A stretch of DNA of 61,798 nucleotides from a virus (taxonomy: Duplodnaviria; Heunggongvirae; Uroviricota; Caudoviricetes), in IMG/VR virus record IMGVR_UViG_3300033233_000007; one strand, written 5' to 3'. Each line of letters starts with the position of its first letter. Position 1 is the first letter of the stretch. Position numbers and translations under genes: made by a program. The notes under the pieces were generated by a model. The model searched no databases. It was not told where the DNA came from and worked only from the letters and a program-made list of their open reading frames with translations. Below, one piece after another: positions 6,243 to 37,933 of the stretch.

Positions 6243-6988
6243 TGCCATTTTTTATGCCCTCGTTCGTCACGACGCGCGACGCCTACACGCCGCAGCAATC
6301 TTCGCGCGTTGAGGCCGGCTATCGCGGGGCGCCGATCTACTCGAGCCGCGAAATGGCCAAGGGAGTGAAGATCGATCCATACCAGGGGCCCGCCCGCGGC
6401 GTGGCCGGACTCGGGCAGGAAGTCTATCTGGGCAAGCTCAGAATGCAGACGGGCGACCGAAGCGCGCTCTTCCATCGCACGCAGGACCTGTGGACGGGTC
6501 TTGACGCGCTGAAGAAACGAATCGCAGGAATCGGCGACGACGTCTGGAAGGTCGCGCAGAACCGGGTCTCGGGCCTGCCGACGAAGACGGCGGCTCTTGC
6601 CATGGTCGAGTCCCCGTCGAAAATTCAGTCCCTCTGGGACGCGTTCGACAAGACCTGCGAGACGTCGTGGATTCCCGGCTTCGACCTCGCGTGTAACAAC
6701 GACGCTTACGCCCAACTCGTCGCCGTGATGGACGCCGCGTCGGCTCACCAGATCGTGGTTGAGCGGCACGTCGCCACCGTCCTTAATACGGTCACGACGG
6801 ACGAACAGAGAAAAATCAGAGACGTGGGGTTCCAGCGGTTCATGGAACTTCAGGTCGAGCGCGTCAAGGAGCCCGCGCCCGTCGGCGGCTTCAGTCTTGG
6901 TGGCATCCTCACGATCGCCGGCATCGGCCTCGCCGCCTTCCTCTTTCTTCCGCGCGTCAGCGAATTCATGAGAGCGGTCAAAAAGTAA
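6242..6988 (+). CDS. Putative virion membrane protein, C-terminal TM
   Basis: TAATG coupling; TM LGGILTIAGIGLAAFLFL. Confidence 0.75.
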   Translation: MPFFMPSFVTTRDAYTPQQSSRVEAGYRGAPIYSSREMAKGVKIDPYQGPARGVAGLGQEVYLGKLRMQTGDRSALFHRTQDLWTGLDALKKRIAGIGDDVWKVAQNRVSGLPTKTAALAMVESPSKIQSLWDAFDKTCETSWIPGFDLACNNDAYAQLVAVMDAASAHQIVVERHVATVLNTVTTDEQRKIRDVGFQRFMELQVERVKEPAPVGGFSLGGILTIAGIGLAAFLFLPRVSEFMRAVKK

Positions 6989-9039
6989 TGGCCACCATCG
7001 ACGCAGACCTTCGCGAGCACCTCGGCCCCGACGCCGTGCCGCAGAGCATCGAGCGCAATCCGCTTCTCATGGCGGTGAGAAACCCGGTCGAGATCACGCC
7101 GGCAAACGTGGAAGACTACGGCGGGCGATATATCGAGACGACGCACGGCGACATGAAGATGACCCACTACGGCCCCGGAAGTTTTTACATCACGCTCACG
7201 CCGATCGTGAAAGGCGAAAAAGCGACCCGCGATCTCACGTGGGGGCCTATCGGCAAGAACAAGGCGATTGAGATCATGAACCGCCTCATCTCGGACAAGC
7301 CGCTTCGCGGAAATCCGATCCAGTGGACGCCGGGCGTCGGATACGAAGACGTGCCGGCGCGCGGAAATCGCATCATCGGCCAAGCGACGTCTCATGTCGT
7401 GAAACGTCCCTTTGGTCGCAGCTACTACTATTGGAGTTGGAAGGGTCAGACGGCCCCGCGCGGCCCCGTGGGGGCTGCAGGTTTTCTGACAGGCGACGAG
7501 ATGATTGATATGCAAACTGGGGAGGTGTTCGTGCGCGAAAATCCGCTTCTCATGGCCGTGTCAAACCCCGGTCCCGTCGAAGTCACGTTCGTGGACCAAA
7601 CGGGGACGAGGACCGTGCGCGCCCGCGTCGGCGGCGACGTCACGGTCCGCAGCATCCTGCCCGCGATCATCACGCGCATGGGCCTGCCGACGACGAGTCC
7701 TGACGGCCAGGCCATGAGCTATTCGCTGGATTACAAGGAAGGCGGGGTCCGCCTTTTGGAAGATCAGACGCTTGCAGACGCCGGCGTCGTCACGGGTCAT
7801 CACCTCATTGTCTTCCCGGAGATCGTGGCGGGGAATCCTGTACATGTTTGCTGCAATCCGCGCACGGGCGTGTGCGACAACCCGCGGCATAGAAATCCGC
7901 TGGACGCTAGAGAAAAATCCGACGTCATCAGCCGCGCGGCTTCCGCATACAGCCGCTCCGCCGTCGCTCCTCGAAGGATCGACGCGGAATACTATCGCGG
8001 GTACGGCCGCGGCATGATGGACGTCGCGGACAGGCATTCGGCCGCGGAGACATATTATCCCGTCGCCGCCAATCCAAAGCGCGCGGGCGGCGTTACCGTT
8101 CTTCCGTACCGCTGGATCGCATCTCTCGAAGAGGCCGGGATCAGGGTTCCTTCCTACGGAGTTTCGGGTCACATGGCCGCTTTCAAGAGGCCCGTGCCTC
8201 TGGCCCACGTCAAGACTATGCTTGAAGAGTACGCGCAAAAGAAGTTGAAGGGACTCCCTCGAGTGGCAGACTTTCTGACCAGGCAGGAGCGGAAGGCGGT
8301 TATTCGAGGAATGATAGATCGTGCGCTTCGCGATGCCGAAACGGGGCAGTTTCATGAAATCGAGAGAGCTTCCGGCGGCTCCAATCCGGGTGAAGACGCC
8401 CTCTTCGACAACCCCTACTACGTCGCCCACCGCGAGGCCATGCCTGCGGAGACCGACATCGTCCGCAGCCTTCGCCGTCGTCGCGACACCTTCCAGCGGT
8501 TTGAGCGTGCGCCGGGGCCCCGCTACGGCGGCGCCGTCGGGCCGTTCCGCACGGGCGACGAGGCAATCGACAGTTGGGGATGGGCCGCGCCTATGGCGAG
8601 GGGCGATGAAGAGCGTGAGATGAGGGTCGCCGCCAACCCGACGCTCGCCGCGGCGCCGTTTCATCCCGGAAAGAAAATCTCCGTAGGCGAGTTCGAGTCG
8701 TGGCTCTCCGCAAACGGCAACCCCGAGGAAAAGCGCGAGTACGAAAGGTCCAAAGCCGCGTACAAGAAGTTTCATCTTGGCGCGGAGCCGAAGTCCATCA
8801 CCCGCGAAGTCATGGACGTCGGCCTGAACCACGGCGTCGTCACGGACCGCGGCTTCGGCTACGGGCTGGGGCAGTCCACGCATGAAACGTACTTCGCGCC
8901 GAAGAATTCGAAAAAAGCGGGCACGGTCTACGTGCACAAATGGGGAACCCGACCCGAGGCCATTGCGACTTCGGACGGCCGGGTCATCATGAAGCCGCTT
9001 AAAGGCACGGCCAGGATCGACGACTGGCTGCGCGGTTAA
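6988..9039 (+). CDS. Asn-Pro-punctuated polyprotein containing a ubiquitin-like domain (7567-7833)
   Basis: 14 NP dipeptides; VEVTFVDQTG..YSL..QTLADAGV..LIVFPEIVAG resembles EsaB/YukD-type Ubl. Confidence 0.8.
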   Translation: MATIDADLREHLGPDAVPQSIERNPLLMAVRNPVEITPANVEDYGGRYIETTHGDMKMTHYGPGSFYITLTPIVKGEKATRDLTWGPIGKNKAIEIMNRLISDKPLRGNPIQWTPGVGYEDVPARGNRIIGQATSHVVKRPFGRSYYYWSWKGQTAPRGPVGAAGFLTGDEMIDMQTGEVFVRENPLLMAVSNPGPVEVTFVDQTGTRTVRARVGGDVTVRSILPAIITRMGLPTTSPDGQAMSYSLDYKEGGVRLLEDQTLADAGVVTGHHLIVFPEIVAGNPVHVCCNPRTGVCDNPRHRNPLDAREKSDVISRAASAYSRSAVAPRRIDAEYYRGYGRGMMDVADRHSAAETYYPVAANPKRAGGVTVLPYRWIASLEEAGIRVPSYGVSGHMAAFKRPVPLAHVKTMLEEYAQKKLKGLPRVADFLTRQERKAVIRGMIDRALRDAETGQFHEIERASGGSNPGEDALFDNPYYVAHREAMPAETDIVRSLRRRRDTFQRFERAPGPRYGGAVGPFRTGDEAIDSWGWAAPMARGDEEREMRVAANPTLAAAPFHPGKKISVGEFESWLSANGNPEEKREYERSKAAYKKFHLGAEPKSITREVMDVGLNHGVVTDRGFGYGLGQSTHETYFAPKNSKKAGTVYVHKWGTRPEAIATSDGRVIMKPLKGTARIDDWLRG

Positions 9040-9050
9040 GAAAAGGAGGC

Positions 9051-10517
9051 ATGAAGATGCTCGAGATGTTCGTGTTAAATCCTCCTCCGCGAAGCGCCAA
9101 ACGCAGGCGCAGCCGCCGGAATCCGTGGGAGAAAATGCGGTCTCCCGGACGTCGGTTCTGGCGGTTCCGCGGTCGGAAGGGGCAGTTCGCGAAGCGGTCG
9201 GCAGGCAAGATGAGAATGAATCCGCGCCGGCGCCGCCGGAAGAATCCGTGGGTCCACCTCACCCGCCCCGCTCGCACGTTCTACCGCTATCGCGGAGCCA
9301 AAGGAAAGTTCCGCAAGCGCGTTCGCCGTGGTCGCGCGAGCGCCTACGGTCTCAACGCTCCCCGTCGACGCCTGCGTAGGCGTCATGCGGTGCGCCGTCA
9401 TCCTCGGACGGTGTCTCGCAGGAATCCAAGGTCGAGGAAACATGGAGGCAGCAGAATGGCCAAGCGTGCCACTCGGCGTCGCCGGGGAACCCGTCGGTCG
9501 TATCGGAGGAATGCCGTTCTCCCGATCCCGGCCAACGTCAACCCGCCGCGTCGCCGCTCTCGCCGCCGCTACCGCAGTAACGCCAAGCGTGGATGGGCGC
9601 TTTACCGCTATCCCGCCCGTTCGGCGTACCACTACGGCGGCTCTCGCGGCAAGTTCATCAAGCGTCGCAAGGGCAAGCCCAGCGCCGCCGCGGCCGCGAC
9701 CGTTGTCGCGAATCCGCGCCGGCGTCGTCGGCGTCACTACGCCGCCAACGTCAGCCGATCCGCCCCCCGTCGCCGTTACGCCAAGCGCCGGTCCCACGCC
9801 CGCCGCAATCCCTATCGCGGCCCGTGGAGCTACCGCCGCAAGGCGTATCGCGTTCCGGGTGGTCGCATCCGCGTTCGCCGGCACCACTACCGCAAGCCGG
9901 GGTATCGCCGGAATCCGATCCTGCCGTTCCCCGTCGAGGTCGGCCTGAACCCGTACGCGGGTAACAACGTCCTCGCGGGTGTCGTCGCCCCGTTCCAGCG
10001 GGCCATGGACTTGTCCTTCGTCACCGGAGAACTCCTGCCCATGGCGGGCGGTTACTTCGGCTCGAAGGCCGTGGGTCGCATGGCCACGGACCTCGTGGGC
10101 GTTCCGTACGACGGCGTGTACAAGTACGTCGCCAACCTTCTGGGCGCGGGCGTCCTTTCCACGGGCGTCAGCATGTTCCTGAAGGATTCGGCGATGGCCA
10201 GTCGCGTCCTCGGCGGAGGCCTGTTCGCGATCTTCGTTGACCTGCTGAAGGATATCGGCGTCACCGGCGCTCTCGGCATCGGCGACCTCGGCGACATCAG
10301 CGATTCGATGAAGAGTCAGATCGTCGACAGCGTCCGCGCGCAACTCCACGGCACGGACGACTACCTCACGTACGAAGCGTACGGCGGTTCGCCTCGTCTG
10401 GCGGACTACGCGTCGGCGGAAGCCCTCAACGCCGCGCCTCATCTGGCGCAGGCCGCGGGCGGCGTCGCGAACATGTCGACCTACGTTGACGAGTTCTCCG
10501 ACGCTCAGTTGGTGTAA
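9051..10517 (+). CDS. Arg-rich protamine-like core protein with RRNP repeats and C-terminal membrane domain
   Basis: Extreme Arg content in N-terminal 60 percent, 10 NP sites, hydrophobic helices C-terminally. Confidence 0.8.
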   Translation: MKMLEMFVLNPPPRSAKRRRSRRNPWEKMRSPGRRFWRFRGRKGQFAKRSAGKMRMNPRRRRRKNPWVHLTRPARTFYRYRGAKGKFRKRVRRGRASAYGLNAPRRRLRRRHAVRRHPRTVSRRNPRSRKHGGSRMAKRATRRRRGTRRSYRRNAVLPIPANVNPPRRRSRRRYRSNAKRGWALYRYPARSAYHYGGSRGKFIKRRKGKPSAAAAATVVANPRRRRRRHYAANVSRSAPRRRYAKRRSHARRNPYRGPWSYRRKAYRVPGGRIRVRRHHYRKPGYRRNPILPFPVEVGLNPYAGNNVLAGVVAPFQRAMDLSFVTGELLPMAGGYFGSKAVGRMATDLVGVPYDGVYKYVANLLGAGVLSTGVSMFLKDSAMASRVLGGGLFAIFVDLLKDIGVTGALGIGDLGDISDSMKSQIVDSVRAQLHGTDDYLTYEAYGGSPRLADYASAEALNAAPHLAQAAGGVANMSTYVDEFSDAQLV

Positions 10518-10550
10518 GCCCGGTAACGGGCCTTTTTGAAGGAGTCAGGA

Positions 10551-11561: not shown

Positions 11562-11566
11562 GACCA

Positions 11567-14854: not shown

Positions 14855-15214
14855 ATGAGCGGATATTCGACATACTTCAGCGGTCCAACGCAGGGCATGG
14901 GCACGGCCTCGTTCGGGTCGATGACGTTCGACATGACGAGCGCCGGGGCCTTTATGATCCCGTATCGACCGTCGTATCCGCCCAGAGACGTCGCCATCAA
15001 CCTGTCGGCCATCGGAGCGCCGCCGAATGCGACGTTCTTGAGTTCAGATCAGTTTCCTTTTCCCGGCATCGGGATATCCGGCAATTTGGGAAATACGATT
15101 ACCCTGACGATCATGTCTATTGCCGGCGGTGTCATGACCGGAACGATCACGGCCAACGCCCTTGTTGCCGGGGAGCTGGCGCGAATGGACTTTGTTGGAT
15201 TTGGGCAGTTCTAA
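14855..15214 (+). CDS. Spike-family paralog (MSGYSTYF)
   Basis: Shared N-terminal motif, beta-rich. Confidence 0.7.
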   Translation: MSGYSTYFSGPTQGMGTASFGSMTFDMTSAGAFMIPYRPSYPPRDVAINLSAIGAPPNATFLSSDQFPFPGIGISGNLGNTITLTIMSIAGGVMTGTITANALVAGELARMDFVGFGQF

Positions 15215-15215
15215 C

Positions 15216-16154
15216 ATGAAAGGCAACTACGAATTCTTCAGTCTGTTGTCCGGTGGAGTCGTACCCGGCGGCGGTAACGTCGTGTATTCGACCCGGACTA
15301 CGATGGTCGATTCCGTCAACGGCAACGACGCGACGGGCCAGTTCGGGCGGCTCGACAAGCCCTATAAGACGATTCAGGCGGCTCTCAATGCCATTCCCGC
15401 CGCTACGGACGCGGTGTCGTCCAAGAGGGTCTTTGTCGTGTATATCTCCCCAGCGGATTACGACGAGGACTTGACGATTGACATGGCGGGTAAGCGGATC
15501 GTTCTGGCGTCGCTCGGGCCTTGGGGCCTTGGCACGTTCAACGCCGTGGATTGGGGACCGTCCGGCACGCGCCGTAACATCATGCTCACGGGCTTCGGGG
15601 CCGCGATTAATGGGATCAGGCCCGGCTTCGCCATCATGGGCGCGCCGTTCGGCGAGGGCCTCACGACGCACGAGAGCTATCTGGCCCGACCTCGCATCAG
15701 CGGCAAGATCGACCTGACGGCGATGACCGGCCTCACCGAACTTCTGCTGGCCTGTGAAGTCTTCGGCACGAATAGTGGCCCGACGGGTGATTCCGTTGTG
15801 GCCGGTCCCGTCATCATCCAAAGCTATATTTATCATTCGCGCTTTCGGGGAAAGCTCACGGGCGTAAACTGGAATTTTCAGGTCAACGAGCGCACGCGCT
15901 TTGGCGGACTTGTCAGCATCAGCGGTTACTCGACGATCCTGTCGTGTCGGTTCGACAGCGGCATGACGACCGCAAGCGCCGGTAATGCCGGAATTTTGCC
16001 CGGTGGATTCTACGATTCCGATTTCGCCGGGACATTTACCGGCCCGGTGGCCTCTCTGAGACTCGACGGGGCGACGAACTACTGGTTCAAGACCAACGGG
16101 GCCGTTCTGGCGGGCGGGGCTACGAAAGTCATTCAGGACGATCTGGTGCCATAG
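15216..16154 (+). CDS. Spike/receptor-binding protein, beta-helix-like
   Basis: VDSVNGNDATG..PYKTIQAALNA motif typical of pectin-lyase-like N-termini. Confidence 0.7.
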   Translation: MKGNYEFFSLLSGGVVPGGGNVVYSTRTTMVDSVNGNDATGQFGRLDKPYKTIQAALNAIPAATDAVSSKRVFVVYISPADYDEDLTIDMAGKRIVLASLGPWGLGTFNAVDWGPSGTRRNIMLTGFGAAINGIRPGFAIMGAPFGEGLTTHESYLARPRISGKIDLTAMTGLTELLLACEVFGTNSGPTGDSVVAGPVIIQSYIYHSRFRGKLTGVNWNFQVNERTRFGGLVSISGYSTILSCRFDSGMTTASAGNAGILPGGFYDSDFAGTFTGPVASLRLDGATNYWFKTNGAVLAGGATKVIQDDLVP

Positions 16155-28148: not shown

Positions 28149-28498
28149 ACAACCTTACGCTCTCTCATTTCGGCGTGCCGCCCCCGCATCCGCATCCGGG
28201 TCCCCATCCGCATCCGCATGGCCCGCGGCCTCACGGCCCCGGCGGCTACTACGGCTCGCCGATCATCTACGGCGGCGGCTATCAGCCGTACATCGCGCCC
28301 TACCCCATCGACTGTAGCGAGGTCCTGCGCTACTGCCTGCCCGTCGTCACTCCCGTGGTCGAAAAACCGCCGGTCGTGCTGGCGCCGCTTTCGGGCATGG
28401 GCGAGGAGAATTTGAACGCCGGCGCCGTTGCCGCCTTTGGGCTCGGCGCGCTCTTCGGGTTCGTCGTTCTGCCTTCACTGATTAAGAAACGGTCTTAG
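28145..28498 (+). CDS. His/Pro-repeat membrane protein
   Basis: PHPHPGPHPH N-terminus, C-terminal TM. Confidence 0.7.
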   Translation: MNNLTLSHFGVPPPHPHPGPHPHPHGPRPHGPGGYYGSPIIYGGGYQPYIAPYPIDCSEVLRYCLPVVTPVVEKPPVVLAPLSGMGEENLNAGAVAAFGLGALFGFVVLPSLIKKRS

Positions 28499-28507
28499 GA
28501 GGATTTT

Positions 28508-28786
28508 ATGGACAGCAAGATGCTCAAAGACGCCGCCCTGTTCGGCGGCATCGGAGTGGTCGCGGGTCTGATCTTCAAGAAGGACCCCGTGATCTTCGGC
28601 ATGATCGGCGCGGCTGCCGGCCTCGGCAAGAACCTGATCGAAAGCGCGGCTGCCAAATCCGCGCTTGACAAGGCCGTCTTGGCCGAGCGGGCCCGCCGCT
28701 TCGCCGCGGAGTCCGCCGGTCAGATGCCTCCGCAGTTGGCGGCGCCGAAGCCCGGTATGGGCCCCGTGCCCGAGCCGATGTTCTAG
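28508..28786 (+). CDS. Small membrane protein
   Basis: Two hydrophobic helices. Confidence 0.7.
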   Translation: MDSKMLKDAALFGGIGVVAGLIFKKDPVIFGMIGAAAGLGKNLIESAAAKSALDKAVLAERARRFAAESAGQMPPQLAAPKPGMGPVPEPMF

Positions 28787-28793
28787 AGGAACC

Positions 28794-29333
28794 ATGTCTA
28801 ACGGACTCGGACTCACAGTAGACGAGATGCGTCACATGTCGCGTGCGGCGCAGCGTTACCAGTTCGCGGCGACGCAGGACAAGCATCCTGCCGTGGCGTT
28901 TCTGCATAACGCCTATGCCGTGGCGATCATGGACAGTCTGCGCGATCTGGCATCGGACGAATTCGTCATGAGGACGACGGGCGAGAACCCCGCAACGCTC
29001 CGGTCCGAAGCGCGAAAGTTTCAGGACAAGCTCGAACTCTCGGCGAGATCGCTTGCCAAAAAGTCTGGCCTTGGAGAAGGCGAGGCGCCCTTTCACAGGA
29101 CGCTCTGGGGGAACGTACTTATCGGCGGTGCCTTTACCGGCCTGGCGACGTGGCTCATCGGTGGACGGCCGCTTACGGGTGTGCTGGTCGGCGCCGGCAT
29201 GGGCGCGGCCAAGCACATGCTCGTCAACGGCTTCGAAGGCCGGCCCGCGACGGCGCCGCACGTGCCGGAAGCGGCGAAGTTGCCGGAGCTTGTGCCGCCG
29301 ACGGGAAGGCTTCCTGGCATCCTGATTTCTTAA
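28794..29333 (+). CDS. Membrane-associated protein
   Basis: C-terminal hydrophobic hairpin like 27441 and 28508. Confidence 0.7.
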   Translation: MSNGLGLTVDEMRHMSRAAQRYQFAATQDKHPAVAFLHNAYAVAIMDSLRDLASDEFVMRTTGENPATLRSEARKFQDKLELSARSLAKKSGLGEGEAPFHRTLWGNVLIGGAFTGLATWLIGGRPLTGVLVGAGMGAAKHMLVNGFEGRPATAPHVPEAAKLPELVPPTGRLPGILIS

Positions 29334-29339
29334 GGACTT

Positions 29340-29837
29340 ATGGCCCGCTACACAACATCGATCGTCGACCGCATCCTTGACGCCGTGGCCGGGCTTGCCG
29401 AAAAGCCGTCAGGCCGGGCCTGTGATGAGGCCATCGTCGACGTCGTGGCCAGTCACACGTCCCATAATCCGCTGGCCGACGCGGCGCTGGCTTTCGACGC
29501 CTACTACGACCACGGTGATGAAGAGGGGACGCTCGACAGGATCGAGGAAGCCGCGCGGGTTGAAGAGCACAGGATCGAAGAATGGCTTAACGATGATCCG
29601 CGCGTGGAGGAGATGGAAAAGAAGTACGACGTCCAAATCACGTTCACGCTCGACTGGGAAGGCGATGGGTTTTATCTTCACGCCGCCATTGAAAGGCCCG
29701 ACGCCGAAGAGGAGGAAGAAGAGGAGGAAACTGAAGTCGCGGCCAACCAGGGTTCGCTGCCCGGCGAAGATGTGCCTGAAGAGGACGAAGAAGAGGACCC
29801 GATAGCCGAAGAAATGCAAGAGAATGACGAGGACTAG
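29340..29837 (+). CDS. Highly acidic protein (possible DNA mimic)
   Basis: D/E-rich. Confidence 0.7.
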   Translation: MARYTTSIVDRILDAVAGLAEKPSGRACDEAIVDVVASHTSHNPLADAALAFDAYYDHGDEEGTLDRIEEAARVEEHRIEEWLNDDPRVEEMEKKYDVQITFTLDWEGDGFYLHAAIERPDAEEEEEEEETEVAANQGSLPGEDVPEEDEEEDPIAEEMQENDED

Positions 29838-30269
29838 GTGGCCAAACACTCCGAATACATTGCTGCCTTCGGTTTTGAAAAGGGCGAAGCAATTTTCAAG
29901 GCCATGCGGAAAGAGCTTGGCGATGACGATCGTGACCGCACGGATTCCGTTGACGCCGCGCTGGACGCCGTCGGCGAAATTTTGGGCGGCTCCGGCGTTG
30001 AGGCCATTAACGGAGAGCATGAGGAGCACGTCGACAGTTACTACCTCGACATTATCTTGCTTTACGTGAACATGGGCAATCCGTACGTCACGACGGTTCT
30101 CTACGATACGCAGGCCGACAGCTTCCTCGTCGGAAACTGGGGCGGCTGGCTTGAGGCGTATCAGGCGGAGATGGAGGAAGAACCTGAAGAGGAGCGCGGC
30201 CTTTTTGATGAAGACGATCCCGCTGAAGACGATCCCGCTGAAGACGAGAGTGTGGAGGAAACCGCTTGA
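29838..30269 (+). CDS. Acidic protein with ERGLFDE tag
   Basis: NMGNPYVTTVLY..F..GNWG core; tag at 30192-30212. Confidence 0.7.
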   Translation: MAKHSEYIAAFGFEKGEAIFKAMRKELGDDDRDRTDSVDAALDAVGEILGGSGVEAINGEHEEHVDSYYLDIILLYVNMGNPYVTTVLYDTQADSFLVGNWGGWLEAYQAEMEEEPEEERGLFDEDDPAEDDPAEDESVEETA

Positions 30270-31303
30270 AGCATCGTAGCCGCATTCGCCGTAACCCATG
30301 GACCGAGTCCATGAAGCAGGCGCTCGGCGGCTATACCCCCAACGGTACGCCCGTCCGCGTTCTCGGTCGCCATGGGCTCGAAGGCAGAATCGAATGGCAG
30401 CGCGGCCGGCCCGACCCCGGCAGTCGCCCCGTCGTCGGACACGGCGCGGAGGTTTTCTTCAAAATCATCTTCGACCAGCCGATCCCGCTACGGGCGTATA
30501 TCGACGCCGTCGGCCACCATGACGTGCAGCGCACGCTCGACAGTCTGGCGTCTATGGGCGCGCTTCCGCCGCAGGCCACGATCCGCATGACCACGGACGA
30601 AGCTCTGTTACGCGGAACGCAATCGTTGCTCAGGGCCAAGCCTGTTGAGCAGGTTTTGGCCATGGGCATTCTCATCACGTTCGTTATTGCGCCATGGCGG
30701 GCGGTCAAGGTCAACCTCGAAAAACTCAAGCAGATGTGGTTCGTTGAAATCACCAGCGGCACAGGAAGCCTTCATGAAAAGCTCATGGTCGTGCCCGCGC
30801 GGTTCGTCGGGCCATATACGTGGGAAGGCGGCAGCGGCTGGCGGTTCGAACTCATCGATCCCGAGTACGCTTCAGCGTGGCAAAAAGAATTCGGCCCCGT
30901 GACGGACGCGGTCAAGGGGACTTACAGCGATTATGTCGGCTTTGTGCCTCATGCGTGGGTCCGGCTGATGGAAAAAGCCAAGGTCAAACTGCCGGCTTAC
31001 ACGGTCAGGAACGAGGGGACGCGTGAACCTATCGCCGCTTTCGCCGAGCCCGTGACGATAGATGAGATCACTCTCGTCTTCGACAAGTACGCCGAGAGAG
31101 TACCGTGGGCCAAGGAACTGTCGTCGGAGGCGATGACAATAAAGAAAAACAAAACTCTTCGAGACATCCTTCAGCTTTTTGTTGTTAGCATCCGCGACAG
31201 CGACCTTCGCAGTTACGCCATCCGACCGCTCCGGGACGAGTACGCGCAGTCGCTCATCGCCGAGTTCACAGGCGTCGAGACGGGTGAGTTCGAAATCACG
31301 TAA
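30266..31303 (+). CDS. Hypothetical protein with N-terminal RRNP
   Basis: ORF. Confidence 0.7.
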   Translation: MKHRSRIRRNPWTESMKQALGGYTPNGTPVRVLGRHGLEGRIEWQRGRPDPGSRPVVGHGAEVFFKIIFDQPIPLRAYIDAVGHHDVQRTLDSLASMGALPPQATIRMTTDEALLRGTQSLLRAKPVEQVLAMGILITFVIAPWRAVKVNLEKLKQMWFVEITSGTGSLHEKLMVVPARFVGPYTWEGGSGWRFELIDPEYASAWQKEFGPVTDAVKGTYSDYVGFVPHAWVRLMEKAKVKLPAYTVRNEGTREPIAAFAEPVTIDEITLVFDKYAERVPWAKELSSEAMTIKKNKTLRDILQLFVVSIRDSDLRSYAIRPLRDEYAQSLIAEFTGVETGEFEIT

Positions 31304-31314
31304 TTGGAGGACCT

Positions 31315-32190
31315 ATGCCCCGCTATGATATCGGAGTACGGACGAACAAAGGACGCATGCAGGTTTTCAGTATCAACGCCGGCAGCGCCGCCGAGGCCAA
31401 GGCCAAACTGCGTAAGCGCCTCTACGCCGACAATCCCTCCCGCGGCAAGTACGTCCGTGAGCGCAAGGCCGACCCCACGCTCTTCGACCATCGCAGCTTC
31501 AGGACGAAGACCGTGAACGACCATCGCGTCGTCGTCGCCTGCCCCAAGGGGAAGTGGAACGCGCGTACGGGTCGCTGTACGGTCGGCATGCGCGCGCAAA
31601 CGCTCTTGCATCCCATGAAGAAAGGCGTGAAGAGGAATCCGGCCGAGTACACGATCGGTCGCGGACCTACGGAACGGAGGATCAGCGCGGCGCAGAAGCG
31701 GCGGATGGCGTGGAATCCTCGATCAAAAAGAATCACGGCGGAATATGCCATTCAACAGGCTTTCCTGTACGCGAGAGACGGACTCACGGGGGGCGCGGAA
31801 GAATGGCTCCAAATGGCCGTGAGACGTGGTGCGTCACCGTCAAAGGTCGCTGGAGTCAAGCGTTCTATAACGACCGCGAGAGAAAAGCGAAAGATTCGGC
31901 AGAGTTGGGAGCGCGAAGCCGTTCATAAAAACCCCGCCGAACTCGATCCCGTAAACGGCGGCGCCGCATTCGAGCAGGACTGGCAGGCCTTCGAAGAGGG
32001 CGCCATCTACAAGATCGCCGCCCGGTACGACAGCTTCAAGCCGCAGTACGCCAAGAGCCAGACGGAGATGACGCGGACGTTCCGCGAGTTTTCGAAGAAG
32101 TACCCGCAGGAGCGAATCGACGTCGTTGACATGCGGGCGCCGCGTCACGTCATGGAGAACCCGCCACGAGGCATCGAATTTCTCGACTAG
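31315..32190 (+). CDS. Basic NP-punctuated polyprotein
   Basis: 5 NP sites separating short modules. Confidence 0.7.
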   Translation: MPRYDIGVRTNKGRMQVFSINAGSAAEAKAKLRKRLYADNPSRGKYVRERKADPTLFDHRSFRTKTVNDHRVVVACPKGKWNARTGRCTVGMRAQTLLHPMKKGVKRNPAEYTIGRGPTERRISAAQKRRMAWNPRSKRITAEYAIQQAFLYARDGLTGGAEEWLQMAVRRGASPSKVAGVKRSITTAREKRKIRQSWEREAVHKNPAELDPVNGGAAFEQDWQAFEEGAIYKIAARYDSFKPQYAKSQTEMTRTFREFSKKYPQERIDVVDMRAPRHVMENPPRGIEFLD

Positions 32191-32196
32191 GAAGAC

Positions 32197-33603
32197 GTGA
32201 CCAGAAATCCCATGTACGAATCCCCGCGCAGTCGCCGGCTTCGCTTCGACCTCGAGGGCATGAAGCGCTTGAAGGCGGAAAGTACGATCTTCGGCTTCAC
32301 GGCGACCGGCGATCCGCCGGAGCGGTATGTCGTCACGTTCAAAGGCAAGAGTTTTTCCGGGCCCGATAAGGTCGTCAACCATCAGGAAATCGAAATCGAC
32401 CTGGGTGCGGAGTACCCCCGAGGCATGCCTAACATCCAATGGAAGAGCAAAGTCTTCCACCCCAACATTTCGTCAAACGGCGGCGTGTGCCTCGGCAACT
32501 ACTTCTCCGAGTGGTCGCCTGCAGCCGGCGTCGTGGGCATCTGCGGCATTCTCTGGGACATGGCCCGATGGGCCAACTTCAACATCAACAGCCCCTATAA
32601 CGGCGACGCCGCTATGTGGTTTCGCCATCAAACGAAGTACCGCTTCCCCATTGACGTGCGATCCCTCAGAGACAAGGTTGACCCGCCATCGGACGCCGTG
32701 TCATCGAAGCCCGCGTGCGCGTCGCCGCCGGATGAGGATATTCTTATCATTGAGAATCCGCCTCCTCCGCTTCAGGACGGCGACCGCGTTCGTCATCTCC
32801 GAAAAGAGGGATGGGTCGGCACGGTCGAGCACGTTGGCCATCCTATCGGCGGGTTTAAGGGCGTGTCGGTTCTGTGGGATCACCAAGCCATGCTCGGGCC
32901 CGACCCATCGGTGCGGCCGTCCGATGTCGTGAAGATTTCGGAGAACCCGCGTGTGCCTCGGTCGGGCAAACCGAGATCGTGGATGCCGAAGATGGTGCAG
33001 TGGAGTTTCCACGAGCCCGCGGCAAAGGACATCCAAGCCCATCTCCGTTCTTTCGGCCTTTACGCCGACATCTCGATGCAAAGCAGACGCATCCGCGAGG
33101 AGCCGTACGTCGAACACGTCTACAGGGTCATCGTACCCGCGTGGCAACTCGATCAGGCCAAGAGAATCCTGAAATCTGGAAAACACGGATGGAACCCGCT
33201 GACCGCGGACGAGCGCGCCACCCTTCAGCGCCGCAGCGCCTCTTTCGCCCGCCGTGCCGACGACTACCCGCTCGACACGCCGCACCGTGCTTACTGGACC
33301 GCGCGGCAACATGAGGCGAGGACGTTGTCGGAAGCGGCGGACGTGGCCGACCTCGAACTGCCCAACGCCGTCGCCGCGAATCCCGACGACCTCTTCTGGA
33401 AAGTCCGCGACTGGCTCGACAATCTTTCCGACATCGCCGACCTCCATAGAGAGAAGTACCCCCACGAGTCCGTGAAGACCGCGCTGCGTTACGCCGAACG
33501 CGTCATGCTCTCCCGCTATGGCCGCCCCGATCCCGAGTTCTTGAAAGAGGCCAGGCGGCAGATCGGAGAACTCAGAGAATTCGCAGAGTCGGAGGGAGCG
33601 TAG
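32197..33603 (+). CDS. NP-punctuated polyprotein with N-terminal E2/UBC domain
   Basis: EYPRGMP..FHPNISSNGGVCLG (catalytic Cys codon 32488-90)..SPYNGDAA. Confidence 0.9.
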   Translation: MTRNPMYESPRSRRLRFDLEGMKRLKAESTIFGFTATGDPPERYVVTFKGKSFSGPDKVVNHQEIEIDLGAEYPRGMPNIQWKSKVFHPNISSNGGVCLGNYFSEWSPAAGVVGICGILWDMARWANFNINSPYNGDAAMWFRHQTKYRFPIDVRSLRDKVDPPSDAVSSKPACASPPDEDILIIENPPPPLQDGDRVRHLRKEGWVGTVEHVGHPIGGFKGVSVLWDHQAMLGPDPSVRPSDVVKISENPRVPRSGKPRSWMPKMVQWSFHEPAAKDIQAHLRSFGLYADISMQSRRIREEPYVEHVYRVIVPAWQLDQAKRILKSGKHGWNPLTADERATLQRRSASFARRADDYPLDTPHRAYWTARQHEARTLSEAADVADLELPNAVAANPDDLFWKVRDWLDNLSDIADLHREKYPHESVKTALRYAERVMLSRYGRPDPEFLKEARRQIGELREFAESEGA

Positions 33604-33604
33604 C

Positions 33605-34600
33605 GTGGACGACTGGAAGTGGTATCAACTGAAGTACGACGTGGCTTCCAATACCTACGTCGTCGCTAATCAGATTCTCTCGTGGGCGACGCGCGTTTTT
33701 CCGCACGAGCTTGAGCAGTACGGCATCCATTCCCAAAGCGACATCGCCGCCGACGCCAGACGCCGCCCCGGCGTGTGGATGCTGTTCTTTTCGGACCAAG
33801 TAGACCGCGGGCTCTTCGACGAGAACCCCTACAGCCCGAATCTCACGTACCATGAGGCCGAAGAGCTTTTCGCCAAGGCGCGGAAGCACTACAGAGACGT
33901 GCCTGTATTCGAGATCAGAACCGTCGAGCCCGAAGACCTCTTCGGCGAAGAGCGCACGGAGCGCGTGAAGGTCGGCACGAAGCGAGAGCTTTCCGTCCAA
34001 GACATGCGCCGCCCGCTTGGCTCGAACACATGGCTCGAGAAGCGCGACGGCGATTACGCGGTCAAGCTCTACTGGACGGACGTCGTGACGGTTCATCCCG
34101 ACGGGACCTATACGATCCAAACGGGCGGCTGGCATACGAACGTGACGAGAGACCGGATCAACATGATTCTGCAGCACCATGGCCTCAATGTCTGGAGCCG
34201 GAGAGTGCGCACGGGCACAAAGGTCGTCCCGCCCGATGAACTCTTCGGCAGAGAAAGGCGGATCGGCCAATACGAGACCGACTGGTGGGTCTTCCGCTAC
34301 GACGGAAAAGACTGGCAGCCGACGACGCCTGTTGGAGACGGCGTGCGCATCGACGCCATGGGCCGGAAGATGCCGTGGCTTCATCGCGTTCAAAGGTTCC
34401 ACCGTAACCCCGGAGACAACGTCGATCGTGCGTACGGCCGCTGGCAGGAGACCATGAAGCTCCGCAAGCGCTGGCCTTTCAAGAGCCCGCCGCCTCATCC
34501 CATGTACACGGCACAGGAGATCGCCGGCATGGAGCGCTTGAGTGATGAAGAGACGCAGGAGCTTTACGCCATGGCGCGCAAGGCGCTGGGGGCGGTGTAG
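33605..34600 (+). CDS. Polyprotein with GLFDENP junction
   Basis: Second module has TGGWHTNVTRDRIN motif. Confidence 0.75.
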   Translation: MDDWKWYQLKYDVASNTYVVANQILSWATRVFPHELEQYGIHSQSDIAADARRRPGVWMLFFSDQVDRGLFDENPYSPNLTYHEAEELFAKARKHYRDVPVFEIRTVEPEDLFGEERTERVKVGTKRELSVQDMRRPLGSNTWLEKRDGDYAVKLYWTDVVTVHPDGTYTIQTGGWHTNVTRDRINMILQHHGLNVWSRRVRTGTKVVPPDELFGRERRIGQYETDWWVFRYDGKDWQPTTPVGDGVRIDAMGRKMPWLHRVQRFHRNPGDNVDRAYGRWQETMKLRKRWPFKSPPPHPMYTAQEIAGMERLSDEETQELYAMARKALGAV

Positions 34601-35907
34601 TGGAGGCGTTCGAAAGGGAAGAGTATTTCTATAAGGACGCTCCGCCTCTCGATCTGGGTAACTGGCATCGCAGTAACGATTACTGGTATTCGCACGGGCG
34701 GTACGACATCAAAACGTTCAAGGGAACGGAGTTTGAAACGGTCTATGGGGATAAATGGATTCTGGCCGGGCCACCTAAAGGCCGGCACATCGCTTATGCC
34801 GATCGACCCGATCAACTGACGAAAAAGGCGCACGATCATTATCACGAAGGATTCGGCCTCTTCGACGAGAACCCCTGTGTCGATACGCGCCGTACTGGAC
34901 GATTCAGGTTTGTTGGATGGGCATACTCCCCCGGTTTTCATTCAGTCAGCGCTGTCTTTGAAGACCCCGAAGGCGCGAGCACCGGCTTCTTTTTCTACAC
35001 GTCCGTGGGCCAGCACGCAGAGGCGGGTCATAAATATGTTACGCATCTTCCTCGAAGGGAACGATGGGTAAGCCGTGTAGAAGCAGAAAAGCTCGATCCC
35101 TCGACCGTCACCGAAGTGACGAGCATGTACGGACGGATACCGGGTGTGGGTGAGGGTGGTCTCTTCGACGAGAACCCCGTTGACCCGCCGAAGCGCGGCC
35201 AGGCTTACACGGTCGGTAGAGACTACGACAGGCTTTGGGTCATCGGCGTCGAGCCGCGTCGTTACGAAAATGTCGTCAGGCTCAGCACAAGGGCGCCGAC
35301 GGCGCGCAGAAGCTTGGACGTGATTACACACAGCTACACCCTTGCCAACTTCATGTCACTCGTTCAATCCGGCTGGTGGCGTCGTGCGCCCGAAAGAGAC
35401 GTGGAGCGCGGCCTCTTCGATGAGAACCCCGCCCGACCCGACTACAACGTCCTGCCAGTGTTCGCCAGCGCTCCCATCACCGGCTACATGGACGGCGGTC
35501 GCGTCAAAGAGCGGTTCCTCAATCACGCGGCAAACTACCTTCGTACGGTTGGCCGTCACCTGCTCGCGCGCGGCATGTTCGAGCAGAGCGTCCATATCAA
35601 CCGCGGCGGCGTCGCCGTCAGTGGCGAAGTCTACGGTGAGTTCCGCTCGTCGCATGAAGACGTTGGCGTCTTCGTGGAGATTTCATCGACGCCCGTGTTT
35701 CAAAACCGGCCCGACAGCGTCATCATCCGCGCGGTCTGGCGGGCTCGAAGGCGCGAGCGTATGCACACGCCGGAAGGCCGTAACAACTGGATCGTCGCTA
35801 ACAGAAATGCCGGCGACTTGGCTAACGATCTTTACGGCCTGCAGCGCCTCGGCGTCCGAGAAGGCGTGGCGCAAGGCGTTGAAGATCGCGGCCTTTTTGA
35901 CGAGTAG
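34600..35907 (+). CDS. Four-module polyprotein (3x GLFDENP, terminal RGLFDE)
   Basis: Junctions at about 34855, 35158 and 35404; tag 35884-35904. Confidence 0.8.
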   Translation: MEAFEREEYFYKDAPPLDLGNWHRSNDYWYSHGRYDIKTFKGTEFETVYGDKWILAGPPKGRHIAYADRPDQLTKKAHDHYHEGFGLFDENPCVDTRRTGRFRFVGWAYSPGFHSVSAVFEDPEGASTGFFFYTSVGQHAEAGHKYVTHLPRRERWVSRVEAEKLDPSTVTEVTSMYGRIPGVGEGGLFDENPVDPPKRGQAYTVGRDYDRLWVIGVEPRRYENVVRLSTRAPTARRSLDVITHSYTLANFMSLVQSGWWRRAPERDVERGLFDENPARPDYNVLPVFASAPITGYMDGGRVKERFLNHAANYLRTVGRHLLARGMFEQSVHINRGGVAVSGEVYGEFRSSHEDVGVFVEISSTPVFQNRPDSVIIRAVWRARRRERMHTPEGRNNWIVANRNAGDLANDLYGLQRLGVREGVAQGVEDRGLFDE

Positions 35908-35910
35908 AGC

Positions 35911-36192
35911 ATGACCCCCACCGAACTCATTCTCATGGCCAACAAGCACTACCCGGAAGGGTTTCTCCTTCGGTATTTTGACGAAAGGACGGGTCGTAAG
36001 AAGGAGGGTCACGGTGACACGCTGGCGTTCTCGATCGTCTTGAACCTCGTGGAGACGTTTGACGAGTCCCTGACGAGCGAAGACCAGGCCGCTGAAGGCG
36101 TTCGCGTCATCGACAGCTTGGTCGACGATCTCGAGCGCGTCAAGCGGGGGCTCCTCGCAGAACCGCCGGAAAGGGGCCTGTTCGATGAGTAG
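35911..36192 (+). CDS. Hypothetical protein ending ERGLFDE
   Basis: ORF. Confidence 0.75.
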   Translation: MTPTELILMANKHYPEGFLLRYFDERTGRKKEGHGDTLAFSIVLNLVETFDESLTSEDQAAEGVRVIDSLVDDLERVKRGLLAEPPERGLFDE

Positions 36193-36856
36193 TCCAAGAA
36201 AACCCTACTACACCGACGCCGAGTATCAAAAGCTAGCGGAGGAGGCTGTGGCTCGCTATGCCCCCAGCGCCCGCGAGGCCCGGTCCTTTGCGTACCGCGG
36301 CGACCTCCCGCTCGGCAAGACGTGGGCGTACACGTTCGGCATGAGTCGCGACAGCGGTCTTCTTGAGCAGAGCAACTTCGACGTGATTTCGCAGAACCTC
36401 AAGGAAGCGTTCCCCGAAGACGTCGAGATCGAACGATCTAGCCATTGGGCCGTCGGATGGATGGATCAAATTGCCGTTCACATGCTCGACGATAGCGGCC
36501 GCGCCACACCTGCAGGTCGTCATGTGCTGGACTGGAAGGCGAAGCTCCTGGACTATCCCGTGGCGGACGAGGAGCACTACAGCGAACGGCAAACCGAAGC
36601 CACGTTCGAGAATATCGTCAGCGCTCTTGGAGATGTCGGGTTCACTCGCGGAGACAGCAAAATGAAAGAAGTCGCTGGAGAGGTTTGGCAGTGGTTCTCC
36701 GACAACAACGAGCGCGCCCTTGACGACGTCGACGATCAGGGGGGCTACCCGAGCGAAGAAGAGACCAGAGAAGCCCTCAAGGACCTCGACTACTTCGAAA
36801 CCGACGATGGATGGGTAAAAGAGCGCGGTCTCTTTGATGAACCTGTGGAGGACTAA
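36185..36856 (+). CDS. Acidic protein (HWAVGW motif) ending ERGLFDEPVED
   Basis: ORF. Confidence 0.75.
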   Translation: MSSPRKPYYTDAEYQKLAEEAVARYAPSAREARSFAYRGDLPLGKTWAYTFGMSRDSGLLEQSNFDVISQNLKEAFPEDVEIERSSHWAVGWMDQIAVHMLDDSGRATPAGRHVLDWKAKLLDYPVADEEHYSERQTEATFENIVSALGDVGFTRGDSKMKEVAGEVWQWFSDNNERALDDVDDQGGYPSEEETREALKDLDYFETDDGWVKERGLFDEPVED

Positions 36857-37362
36857 TGCGTACAAACCCCGTTCAAATTCGTCGCGTCTACGTCAAGACG
36901 ATGATCGATGAGAATCCTGATCTCTCGCATCTCGGCAAGTACAGCGACACGCCTGGACCTTATGCCATTGATCGCGAGGAGCGCGGAGACATGAGGCGCG
37001 GCGAGTTTCGCTACTGGAATCCCGCCATGACTGCTGAAGAAACGGGCAACCCCGATTCCGTCGAACAGGACTACAAGCGCCATGAAGCCTACGGCGATGA
37101 TCTGTGGCAGGCCATGGGTATCCGAGCCTGCGCTGAAGTCGTGGCGGGCGACACGACTCAGACGATCTGTTCGGCGGGACTCTGGGGAATCGAATCGGAT
37201 TCTGAGCCCACGTACTTCACGGGAGTTGCCGAAGAGCAGCTTGAGGAACTTTACACGATCCTCCAAGACTTCGGTATCCCTCAAGCCAGATCGCGATCCG
37301 TTCGCGTCGAGTACCCGGAAAACATCGAGCCGGCTGAGGAGCGGGGGCTGTTCGATGAGTAG
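36856..37362 (+). CDS. Acidic protein (GLWGIESD motif), MRTNP start, ERGLFDE end
   Basis: ORF. Confidence 0.75.
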   Translation: MRTNPVQIRRVYVKTMIDENPDLSHLGKYSDTPGPYAIDREERGDMRRGEFRYWNPAMTAEETGNPDSVEQDYKRHEAYGDDLWQAMGIRACAEVVAGDTTQTICSAGLWGIESDSEPTYFTGVAEEQLEELYTILQDFGIPQARSRSVRVEYPENIEPAEERGLFDE

Positions 37363-37933
37363 GAATCCGAAGACGTACAGCTATGATGACCTTGAGTGGC
37401 ATGCCGCTGAGAAGGCGCTTGAAGGGGCGCGGGAGCGCGGCTACGGCGGCGAGCTTGAGGAGGATGATGTCCGCGACATCATCGAGTTCACCCTCAAGTC
37501 CTACGGCTTCCGCGTAGAGGACCCCGAGCGCGGTATGCAGTGGGAGATCGACTTCATGCGGCCCGGAGACTCGCATGTAAAGTTCAGCGCGCTTGTCGCC
37601 GACATACCGAAGTTCTTTGCGGCTCATAAGGGCCTCGCCGTGGAGCCCGAAAGTCTGTTTGAAGAGTTTCTCGACGAAGACGCCATCTCCTTTGTTCGCG
37701 TGAACATGGACGGGTCCGTAGACATTTCACTCAAGGACGATGACCTGACGGACGACGAACTGGAAGACTTGTCGGCTATTGAAGAAGAAGTAGAGAAAAT
37801 TGCCGACGATGCGGGCAATAAGGCCCTCTGGGCCGTCGTCAAGGAGTACGAGGCCCGTAACAGCGACAAGGCCGTCGAAGAGCGGCTCAGGAAAGAGAAG
37901 ACGCGCTTTACGGAAGAAGGAAGGTTCGCGTGA
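37355..37933 (+). CDS. Acidic protein, MSRNP start
   Basis: ATG embedded in upstream GATGAGTAG. Confidence 0.75.
   Translation: MSRNPKTYSYDDLEWHAAEKALEGARERGYGGELEEDDVRDIIEFTLKSYGFRVEDPERGMQWEIDFMRPGDSHVKFSALVADIPKFFAAHKGLAVEPESLFEEFLDEDAISFVRVNMDGSVDISLKDDDLTDDELEDLSAIEEEVEKIADDAGNKALWAVVKEYEARNSDKAVEERLRKEKTRFTEEGRFA

What the first reader, a model, noticed from the sequence alone, without database searches (positions are those of the whole stretch)
6988..37933. Genome-wide Asn-Pro punctuation: modular polyproteins
Seen by hand count: 14 NP in the 683-aa ORF (most of its Asn), 10 in the Arg-rich protein, 5 each in 31315 and 32197, and 3 in 34600. NP falls exactly at domain borders, with a duplicated linker (ERNPLLMAVRNP / RENPLLMAVSNP), and stand-alone genes start MxxNP (MTRNP, MRTNP, MSRNP). 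Known: Asn-Pro bonds self-cleave in FlhB/YscU NPTH, and Varidnaviria eukaryotic viruses mature cores by protease. Inference: a maturation code releasing many small proteins from virion polyproteins.
Basis: partly seen in the sequence, partly recalled or inferred. Interest (0 to 1): 0.8.

Follow-up and report, generated by a model that had tools for sequence, protein, structure and literature searches.

The report
Asn-Pro seams joining whole viral proteins
In nine genes of this large uncultivated phage, complete small proteins are strung head to tail with only an Asn-Pro pair between them, which looks like a cutting code for polyproteins, although no cutting has been shown.

Summary
The counts are exact and far beyond chance. 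Nine genes in two clusters (6988-10517 and 30266-37933) hold 45 Asn-Pro against 6.9 expected. The other 73 genes hold 29 against 22.7, so the pattern is not genome-wide.

NP is a seam between complete proteins:
- The ubiquitin-like module ends ...IVAG, as its stand-alone homologues do.
- The E2 module starts where stand-alone E2s start and ends ...ILIIE, as 51 of 55 of them do.
- Four seams follow ...GLFDE, the C-terminus of three neighbouring genes.
- In the one close relative, about 85% identical in DNA, every module swap, insertion or fusion is bounded by NP.

Two further results are new. The motif is longer: hydrophobic-x-x-Asn-Pro, in 32 of 45 sites against 21% of ordinary NPs. The Met of the MxxNP gene starts fills that hydrophobic position.

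Processing sites, probably cut just before Asn, are the best reading (about 0.5). An uncut hinge or docking motif is not excluded. The only protease candidate is a weak transglutaminase-like gene interrupted by a conserved 37-nt hairpin.

Other agents of this scan reported NP seams in at least eight other viral genomes.

The parts
6988..9039 (+). 683-aa modular protein P0001 with 14 NP seams and about 8 modules plus short inter-NP peptides
   Evidence: cassette differences against relative P0003
7057..7085 (+). Linker NPLLMAVRNP, first copy of a 29-nt direct repeat flanking the swappable cassette
7540..7568 (+). Linker NPLLMAVSNP, second copy (90% identical in DNA)
7570..7833 (+). YukD-type ubiquitin-like module (aa 195-282), bracketed NP-...-IVAG-NP
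   Evidence: Pfam PF08817 E=5e-11. It aligns end to end with stand-alone 90-92-aa homologues that end ...IVAG.
9051..10517 (+). 488-aa Arg-rich protein P0002 with 10 NP seams between basic peptides and a Gly-rich, hydrophobic C-terminal domain
   Evidence: NPs conserved in the relative
30266..31303 (+). 345-aa protein with one NP at residues 10-11 (RIRR-NP). Its C-terminal domain is a paralogue of P0001 module aa 366-456.
31315..32190 (+). 291-aa protein with 5 NP seams, all with a hydrophobic residue at -3
32197..33603 (+). 468-aa protein: (V/M)TR-NP, an E2 module, then four further NP-bounded modules
   Evidence: UQ_con E=5.6e-13; relative P0010; stand-alone E2 termini
33605..34600 (+). 331-aa protein with 2 NP, one of them after RGLFDE
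34600..35907 (+). 435-aa protein of four modules joined by GLFDE-NP, ending ...RGLFDE at the stop
   Evidence: stand-alone homologues of modules 2 and 4
36856..37362 (+). 168-aa protein starting MRT-NP, with 4 NP, ending ...ERGLFDE at the stop
37355..37933 (+). 192-aa protein starting MSR-NP; its start overlaps the previous stop
4658..5219 (+). Candidate transglutaminase-like cysteine peptidase gene, split by a 37-nt hairpin (4952-4988) inside GDC|DDM. It is the only protease candidate seen.
   Evidence: The C-terminal half matches Pfam Transglut_core at E=0.0026, below the curated cut-off.

Best explanation
Hydrophobic-x-x-Asn-Pro is a seam that joins complete, independently functional small proteins head to tail in nine genes of this phage. 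The modules include a ubiquitin-like protein, an E2 enzyme, arginine-rich peptides and accessory proteins of unknown function.

It is most likely the recognition signal of an endopeptidase, phage-encoded or from the host and not identified here. That enzyme would release the modules, so these genes would be polyproteins. The cut is most likely immediately before Asn (P3 hydrophobic, P1' Asn, P2' Pro). A cut there regenerates the natural C-termini of the upstream modules.

Shown: the enrichment, the extended motif, the coincidence with natural protein termini, NP-bounded cassette exchange, and purifying selection on NP.

Inferred: that the seams are cut, where they are cut, and by what.
For: 1. 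Enrichment: 45 NP against 6.9 expected in nine genes, and chance level elsewhere. A control of 1183 ORFs in 79 control loci (about 0.5 Mb of other ubiquitin-like-gene-bearing metagenome DNA) has no NP-rich ORF.

2. Seams equal natural termini:
- The ubiquitin-like module spans exactly the length of stand-alone homologues that end ...PEIVAG.
- The E2 module begins NP-MYESPR where stand-alone E2s begin M(A)YESPR. It ends DILIIE-NP, and 51 of 55 stand-alone E2s end in three hydrophobic residues plus an acidic one, 22 of them ILIIE.
- Four seams follow GLFDE, which is the exact C-terminus of three neighbouring genes.
- Modules 2 and 4 of ORF 34600 match stand-alone proteins of 87-166 aa.

3. In the only close relative, all structural differences are NP-to-NP cassette swaps, insertions or upstream fusions.

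4. NP is kept at 21 of 23 alignable sites, against 63% expected (p=0.0025).

5. A hydrophobic residue sits at -3 in 32 of 45 sites, against 21% of 301 control NPs scored at that position (Fisher 5e-11). There is no Pro at -3 to -1. In MxxNP starts the Met occupies -3, and 0 of 1183 control ORFs start xxxNP.

6. A ubiquitin-like protein needs a free C-terminal Gly to be conjugated (established knowledge). This implies at least that seam is cut.
Against: No data show cleavage.

No convincing protease was found. The transglutaminase-like gene is below Pfam threshold and interrupted.

The ubiquitin-like family evidently has its own C-terminal trimming: homologues carry 1-4 extra residues or fused domains after Gly, never NP. 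The IVAG|NP cut therefore need not involve NP. GLFDE tags also tolerate short C-terminal extensions. Both points weaken the placement of the cut.

Seams only 3-8 residues apart (NP-RHR-NP, NP-VHVCC-NP) are odd for a processing code.

One module junction (in ORF 30266) lacks NP. One NP in P0001 and one in P0002 are not conserved.

Among seams unique to the relative, only about 2 of 7 have a hydrophobic -3 residue.

Only one relative genome was available.
Confidence: 0.5

Rival explanations
1. Uncut seam. Hydrophobic-x-x-Asn-Pro is a structural joint, such as a helix or strand stop followed by an Asn-Pro turn. It would insulate neighbouring modules so that they fold and act independently inside one multi-domain 'polyvalent' protein.
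For: Asn-Pro is a strong turn former, and Pro-based helix C-caps have a hydrophobic residue three to four positions upstream (general structural knowledge, not tested here). No protease was identified. Polyvalent proteins of phages are often delivered unprocessed (PMC5512222).
Against: It does not explain MxxNP at the N-termini of stand-alone genes (0 of 1183 control ORFs). It does not explain tandem seams 3-8 residues apart. It leaves an embedded ubiquitin-like protein whose Gly would be blocked. Ordinary NPs in control proteins lack the hydrophobic -3 residue (21%).
Confidence: 0.25
2. Docking or targeting tag. The motif, often beside Arg runs, is bound by a packaging, membrane or DNA-associated partner. 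It would mark each module as cargo and would not be cut.
For: Arg is frequent at -1 and -2 (14 of 45 each against an 18% background). The Arg-rich P0002 ends in a Gly-rich, hydrophobic domain. A separate C-terminal tag, ERGLFDE, shows that this genome uses short linear tags.
Against: Two residues plus one hydrophobic position make a very small binding epitope. Tagging each module of a single chain separately would be redundant. Nothing places these proteins in the particle.
Confidence: 0.12
3. Autocatalytic or chemical scission of the Asn-Pro bond itself by Asn cyclisation, as in FlhB/YscU NPTH or reovirus mu1 N42|P43.
For: Asn-Pro bonds are known to undergo succinimide-mediated cleavage (established chemistry, from my own knowledge; not tested here).
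Against: None of the 45 sites is NPTH, and nothing after NP is conserved. There is no FlhB-type domain. The natural C-termini lie before Asn, not after it. A hydrophobic -3 requirement points to an enzyme pocket. Uncatalysed Asn-Pro scission is slow.
Confidence: 0.08
4. DNA-level by-product: NP codons are recombination scars or microhomology used to shuffle cassettes, with no role in the protein.
For: A 29-nt direct repeat flanks the first cassette, and GTCGCCGCCAAYCC recurs at two seams.
Against: AAYCC is enriched only in frame 0 of these genes. Six bases are too few to direct recombination. Flanking codons differ between seams. NP is under purifying selection, and a protein-level hydrophobic -3 rule exists.
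Confidence: 0.05

Closest known systems
Polyvalent proteins of phages and conjugative elements (Iyer, Burroughs, Anand, de Souza, Aravind 2017, PMC5512222)
   Same: Both have many unrelated small domains strung in one polypeptide of a mobile element, with mosaic domain swapping between relatives. In both, modules also occur as stand-alone genes in accessory arrays. Release by proteolysis has been proposed there too.
   Different: Those proteins are defined by their domain repertoire and often carry an embedded zincin-like peptidase. No uniform junction motif is described for them. Here the junction is a fixed hydrophobic-x-x-Asn-Pro with no other linker, no embedded peptidase was found, and most modules are of unknown family.
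Head and core maturation by a virion protease at short consensus sites: T4 gp21 (L/I-x-E), phiKZ-like gp175 (S/A/G-x-E), adenovirus protease on pVII and pX ((M/I/L)-x-G-G/x). From my own knowledge.
   Same: Both use a short motif with a hydrophobic residue 3-4 positions before the cut, repeated in many proteins. Arg-rich DNA-condensing precursors are cut into small peptides. Eleven of the 45 seams read hydrophobic-x-(E/D) before NP, like the T4 motif.
   Different: The invariant residues here lie on the primed side (Asn-Pro), which is described for none of these enzymes. No homologue of those proteases was found, and a virion location is unproven.
Ubiquitin-like precursors and polyubiquitin, cut after the C-terminal Gly by dedicated peptidases
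   Same: The embedded ubiquitin-like module ends at the Gly where homologues end. Homologues with 1-4 extra residues imply such trimming.
   Different: This explains only one of the 45 seams. None of the 74 homologue tails read is followed by NP.
FlhB/YscU NPTH autocleavage and other asparagine peptide lyases
   Same: Both contain an Asn-Pro dipeptide.
   Different: The TH is absent, there is no FlhB fold, and the termini evidence places the module end before Asn.

Membership tests
Polyvalent proteins (Iyer et al. 2017) | Two to fifteen unrelated domains in one polypeptide encoded by a phage or plasmid, with mosaic architectures among relatives | tested here: met
   P0001 has about 8 modules, the 32197 protein 5 and the 34600 protein 4. 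Cassette swaps are seen in relatives.
Polyvalent proteins (Iyer et al. 2017) | Domains drawn from the conflict or anti-defence repertoire, often with an embedded peptidase (zincin-like MPTase) | tested here: inconclusive
   Only YukD and UQ_con are recognised. Other modules have no family, and their homologues lie in small-gene arrays next to SSB, DUF6573 and DUF5983. No embedded peptidase was found.
Proteolytically processed viral polyprotein | Products with termini at defined sites | not testable with these tools
   No proteomic data are available. The only evidence is indirect, from natural termini of homologues.
Proteolytically processed viral polyprotein | A cognate protease | tested here: inconclusive
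   Pfam and PHROGs scans covering most window ORFs found none. A transglutaminase-like gene at 4658-5219 scores E=0.0026, below the cut-off, and is interrupted by 37 nt.
FlhB/YscU-type NPTH autocleavage | An N-P-T-H motif within a FlhB C-terminal domain | tested here: not met
   None of the 45 sites is NPTH, and there is no such Pfam domain.
2A / StopGo peptide-bond skipping | D(V/I)ExNPGP | tested here: not met
   Only one NPGP (aa 193-196 of P0001), without the upstream DxE. As far as I know the mechanism is not known to work on bacterial ribosomes.
T4 gp21 / phiKZ gp175-type prohead protease substrates | (L/I or S/A/G)-x-Glu at P3-P1 and a homologous protease | tested here: inconclusive
   Twelve of 45 sites have Asp or Glu at -1 and 32 of 45 have a hydrophobic -3 residue. 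No protease homologue was found.
Ubiquitin-like (YukD) / E2 pair | A beta-grasp domain ending in Gly, plus a UQ_con domain with catalytic Cys, encoded as neighbours | tested here: met
   Pfam hits. In most of the 79 control loci a stand-alone E2 homologue is encoded immediately downstream of the ubiquitin-like gene; 55 complete E2 genes were read. In the window the two are embedded in polyproteins 25 kb apart, and a stand-alone ubiquitin-like copy lies upstream of the window.

The most novel reading that the evidence does not exclude
Hydrophobic-x-x-Asn-Pro is the substrate code of an undescribed peptidase with primed-side Asn-Pro specificity. A broad set of uncultivated prokaryotic viruses would use it to run a true polyprotein strategy. 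Whole accessory proteins, including a ubiquitin-like protein and its E2, could then be plugged in or removed as NP-bounded cassettes and released after translation or after delivery into the host.
Probability: 0.35. Interest if true: 0.8.

Novelty: new variant of a known kind. Interest (0 to 1): 0.66.

Why it matters
Polyprotein processing is a hallmark of eukaryotic RNA viruses and of core maturation in adenoviruses, poxviruses and asfarviruses. In phages it is known mainly as trimming of head proteins.

A fixed two-residue seam would be different. It lets complete proteins be concatenated with no other linker and exchanged as cassettes. That would be a simple, portable polyprotein grammar for prokaryotic viruses.

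It would point to a protease with an unusual primed-side specificity that could serve as a tool. It would also help to annotate the many large orphan proteins of uncultivated viruses, by splitting them at seams before searching.

The embedded ubiquitin-like protein and E2 add a second question: does a phage deploy a ubiquitin-type conjugation pair, and does it need release from the polyprotein to do so?

Tried and rejected
DNA motif: rejected. AAYCC is enriched in frame 0 only.

Special codon choice (AAT-CCG): rejected. T-ending codons are favoured before Pro for many amino acids.

Stop-codon read-through or recoding joining the cluster's genes: nine of 14 stops in 28145-37362 are TAG. Only two of six TAG-terminated genes checked are in frame with the next gene, which is the chance expectation.

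Searches for relatives that gave nothing:
- IMG/VR scans with P0001, the P0002 C-terminal domain, the 12600 protein and the N-terminal half of the transglutaminase-like protein.
- A DNA pattern for GLFDENP, which gave only chance hits.
- A metagenome scan with the P0001 alignment.
- tblastn against GenBank phages.

Structure: AlphaFold models of P0001 (pLDDT 33) and of the 12600 protein (pLDDT 35) were too poor for domain borders or fold searches. PDB sequence searches were empty.

Rest of the genome: no whole genome is held. Contig look-ups returned only the 81-kb ENA contig, which ends 1.1 kb past the window.

Capsid identity: the Atlas gave only weak leads, a VP17-barrel cluster at 0.75 and jelly-roll-like folds at TM below 0.4. 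Neither Varidnaviria nor tailed-phage membership is settled. One PHROG 'tail protein' match was found on ORF 15162.

Literature: full-text searches for Asn-Pro with phage, capsid or polyprotein found nothing relevant.
Full report
**What is there.** The window is 61% G+C and tightly packed with genes, on the + strand up to about 42 kb and on the - strand beyond. Notes from other windows of the same contig (125.8 kb) describe a large uncultivated phage with a tRNA array and a DnaE polymerase.

I translated the likely genes and counted Asn-Pro against the expectation from each protein's own composition:
There are also 5 in 31315, 5 in 32197, 3 in 34600, 4 in 36856 and 2 in 33605. ORFs 30266 and 37355 each have one, near the N-terminus.
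- Together these nine genes hold 45 NP against 6.9 expected (p about 6e-22).
- The remaining 73 genes hold 29 against 22.7. The phenomenon is therefore confined to two clusters (6988-10517 and 30266-37933) and is not genome-wide.
- In the five genes that are each individually significant (one of them a methyltransferase outside the seam set), NP is the only outlying dipeptide, at z=16 against 3.2 for the next.
- AAYCC is enriched only in the reading frame of these genes. The preference for AAT before CCN is shared by other amino acids that precede Pro. The signal is thus in the protein, not in the DNA.

**NP lies between complete proteins.** Pfam finds a YukD-type ubiquitin-like domain at aa 197-274 of P0001 (E=5e-11). 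It finds a UQ_con (E2) domain in the 32197 protein (E=5.6e-13).
- *Ubiquitin-like module.* It reads NP-GPVEVTF...PEIVAG-NP. Stand-alone homologues of 90-92 aa (67-69% identical) align with it end to end and stop at ...PEIVAG. One of them is encoded 1.2 kb upstream of the window in the same genome.
- *E2 module.* A metagenome scan found 365 loci with this ubiquitin-like gene. Most of the loci kept encode an E2 directly downstream. Those stand-alone E2s begin M(A)YESPR.RRL, where the window reads NP-MYESPRSRRL. Fifty-one of 55 end in three hydrophobic residues plus an acidic one, 22 of them exactly ILIIE. The window reads DILIIE-NP.
- *GLFDE tag.* Four seams follow ...GLFDE, a tag that forms the exact C-terminus of ORFs 34600, 35911 and 36856.
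- *Modules of ORF 34600.* An exhaustive profile search showed that the module after the third seam has more than 50 stand-alone homologues, mostly of 136-166 aa. The module between the first two seams has stand-alone homologues of 87-130 aa.
- These genes are therefore head-to-tail concatenations of whole proteins. Asn-Pro is essentially the only linker.

**Comparison with the one close relative.** Only one relative was found, in the Logan assembly of ERR13950643, about 85% identical in DNA.
- In P0001 against P0003 the shared modules are about 90% identical. The differences are whole cassettes bounded by NP on both sides:
  - a 151-aa pair of modules is replaced by an unrelated 71-aa Cys/His-rich one, between the two NPLLMAV linkers;
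  - a 111-aa stretch (aa 364-474) is replaced by 'RHA';
  - an extra NP-RHRG is present.
- In the E2 protein the relative has two further modules fused upstream through ...KAA-NP and ...RVRR-NP-LYESPR. It also has a 63-aa module inserted between two NPs. All five NPs of the window protein are kept.
- Over the three alignable proteins NP is conserved at 21 of 23 sites. The overall 79% identity predicts 63% (p=0.0025).

**A longer motif.** Aligning the 45 sites shows a hydrophobic residue (V, I, L, M, F, Y or W) at position -3 in 32 of them, against a 30% background (p=1.6e-8). After collapsing the repeated GLFDE seams the count is 29 of 42. There is no Pro at -3 to -1, and Asp, Glu and Arg are modestly in excess at -1 and -2.
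- As a control I took the ordinary NPs in 1183 ORFs of the ubiquitin-like-gene loci (about 0.5 Mb, similar G+C), 301 of which could be scored at -3. None of these ORFs is NP-rich. Hydrophobic residues at -3 reach only 21% (Fisher p=5e-11).
- The three gene starts MTR-NP, MRT-NP and MSR-NP place the initiator Met at -3. None of the 1183 control ORFs starts xxxNP.
- The V of the window's GTG start (V-T-R-NP) corresponds to the V of the relative's internal RVRR-NP seam. Gene fission or fusion has therefore happened exactly at the minimal motif. The public gene call starts that gene at the ATG five codons later, so this one start is uncertain.

**How it most likely works.** A uniform, selected, minimal joint between complete proteins, a position-specific hydrophobic residue upstream, and a three-residue leader kept on stand-alone genes are together what a protease recognition site looks like.
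- A ubiquitin-like protein can only be activated with a free C-terminal Gly. At least that seam must therefore be cut if the module is functional.
- A cut immediately before Asn would regenerate three different natural C-termini: IVAG, ILIIE and GLFDE.
- This placement is not secure, for two reasons. Homologues of the ubiquitin-like protein often carry 1-4 extra residues or a fused domain after Gly, never NP. The family therefore has its own trimming enzyme. The GLFDE tag also tolerates short extensions.
- The Arg-rich P0002 would be cut into basic peptides of 8-60 residues plus a Gly-rich C-terminal domain. This resembles the processing of adenovirus core-protein precursors in outline only.

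**What speaks against it.** Nothing here shows cleavage.
- No protease was recognised in Pfam and PHROGs scans covering most ORFs of the window.
A 37-nt GC hairpin breaks its frame inside GDC|DDM. The insert is 100% conserved in the relative.
- Seams 3-8 residues apart are unusual for a processing code.
- A paralogue of one P0001 module is joined without NP in ORF 30266.
- One NP in each of P0001 and P0002 is not conserved.
- New seams in the relative often lack the hydrophobic -3 residue.
- An uncut hinge, or a docking motif, therefore remains a serious rival.
- The FlhB/YscU analogy fails on its defining feature (no NPTH). The 2A analogy fails too (a single NPGP).

**Context.** 'Virion polyproteins' is not established. 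No capsid, portal, terminase or packaging ATPase was recognised, and the structure models were too poor to use. Atlas leads to jelly-roll proteins are weak.
- Homologues of the second cluster's modules lie in arrays of small genes of mobile elements, next to SSB and several DUFs.
- The closest published concept is therefore the polyvalent protein of phages and conjugative elements (PMC5512222). That paper describes no uniform junction motif.
- Full-text searches found no description of an Asn-Pro seam in phages.
- Other agents of this scan have reported NP seams in at least eight other viral genomes. Two of those have a transglutaminase-like or cysteine protease next door, and one has a (Pro/Val)-Arg-x-Asn-Pro consensus that matches the motif found here. 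These are unchecked notes. I could not reach those genomes, so I treat them as leads, not as support.

**Verdict.** It is sharpened here in three ways: a longer motif, exact natural termini at the seams, and NP-bounded cassette exchange. The processing interpretation is the best available, at about 0.5, but it is unproven.

Noticed in passing
window 4940-5000 (insert 4952-4988); L001 about 1850-1890: A 37-nt GC-rich hairpin (10-bp stem, GCGA loop, -27 kcal/mol, z=-2.1) interrupts a transglutaminase-like gene exactly within GDC|DDM and shifts the frame by +1. It is 100% identical in a relative whose flanks are about 93% identical. Possible readings are a bypass or hop element, an RNA-level excision, or a conserved disruption.
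   Followed up: partly
window 30198, 33809, 34855, 35158, 35410, 35890, 36175, 36827, 37345; also 2061; L025 11438-11698 and 18072-18455: A short tag (E/P)(R/G)GLF(D/E)E sits at or near the C-terminus of about ten otherwise unrelated proteins. This includes early-region genes upstream of the window and an internal PRGLFEEEE in the 692-aa coiled-coil protein. It is probably a docking peptide for a common partner.
   Followed up: partly
L032-L110 (metagenome loci); window 7570-7833 and 32212-32754: The YukD-like gene is followed directly by an E2 gene in most of the 79 metagenome loci kept; the scan found 365 loci with the ubiquitin-like gene. The E2s carry two acidic-plus-ILII(D/E) motifs, one of them at the very C-terminus, which resemble SUMO-interaction motifs. 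No E1 or deubiquitinase was looked for.
   Followed up: partly
window 14855, 16163, 17948, 19220, 19642, 20079: Six paralogous small genes (111-145 aa) begin M(T/S/H)GYSTYF. They are interleaved with other genes in a block that contains the only PHROG 'tail protein' match (ORF 15162-16154).
   Followed up: no
window 28145-37362: Nine of 14 genes end in TAG, against 28 of 82 in the window overall. ORF pairs 31315/32197 and 34600/35911 are in the same frame, separated by a single TAG and 2 or 1 codons. This is compatible with chance (2 of 6) but worth a look for read-through.
   Followed up: partly
window 9120-9400, 9600-9700: The Arg-rich protein contains three to four copies of a unit NPW-x6-P-x-R-x-F-(W/Y)-R-(F/Y)-R-G-x-K-G-x-F-x-K-R. 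This is possibly a DNA-condensing peptide repeat.
   Followed up: no
window 30929-31294 and 8083-8355: The C-terminal domain of ORF 30266 (aa about 222-343) is a distant paralogue of P0001 module aa 366-456 (BLASTP E=4e-7). The close relative lacks this module.
   Followed up: partly
L026 439-975 (ERR13950643): In the relative, a second ubiquitin-like copy is fused after ...IVAG to an 86-aa C-terminal domain without NP, like a ubiquitin-fusion precursor.
   Followed up: no
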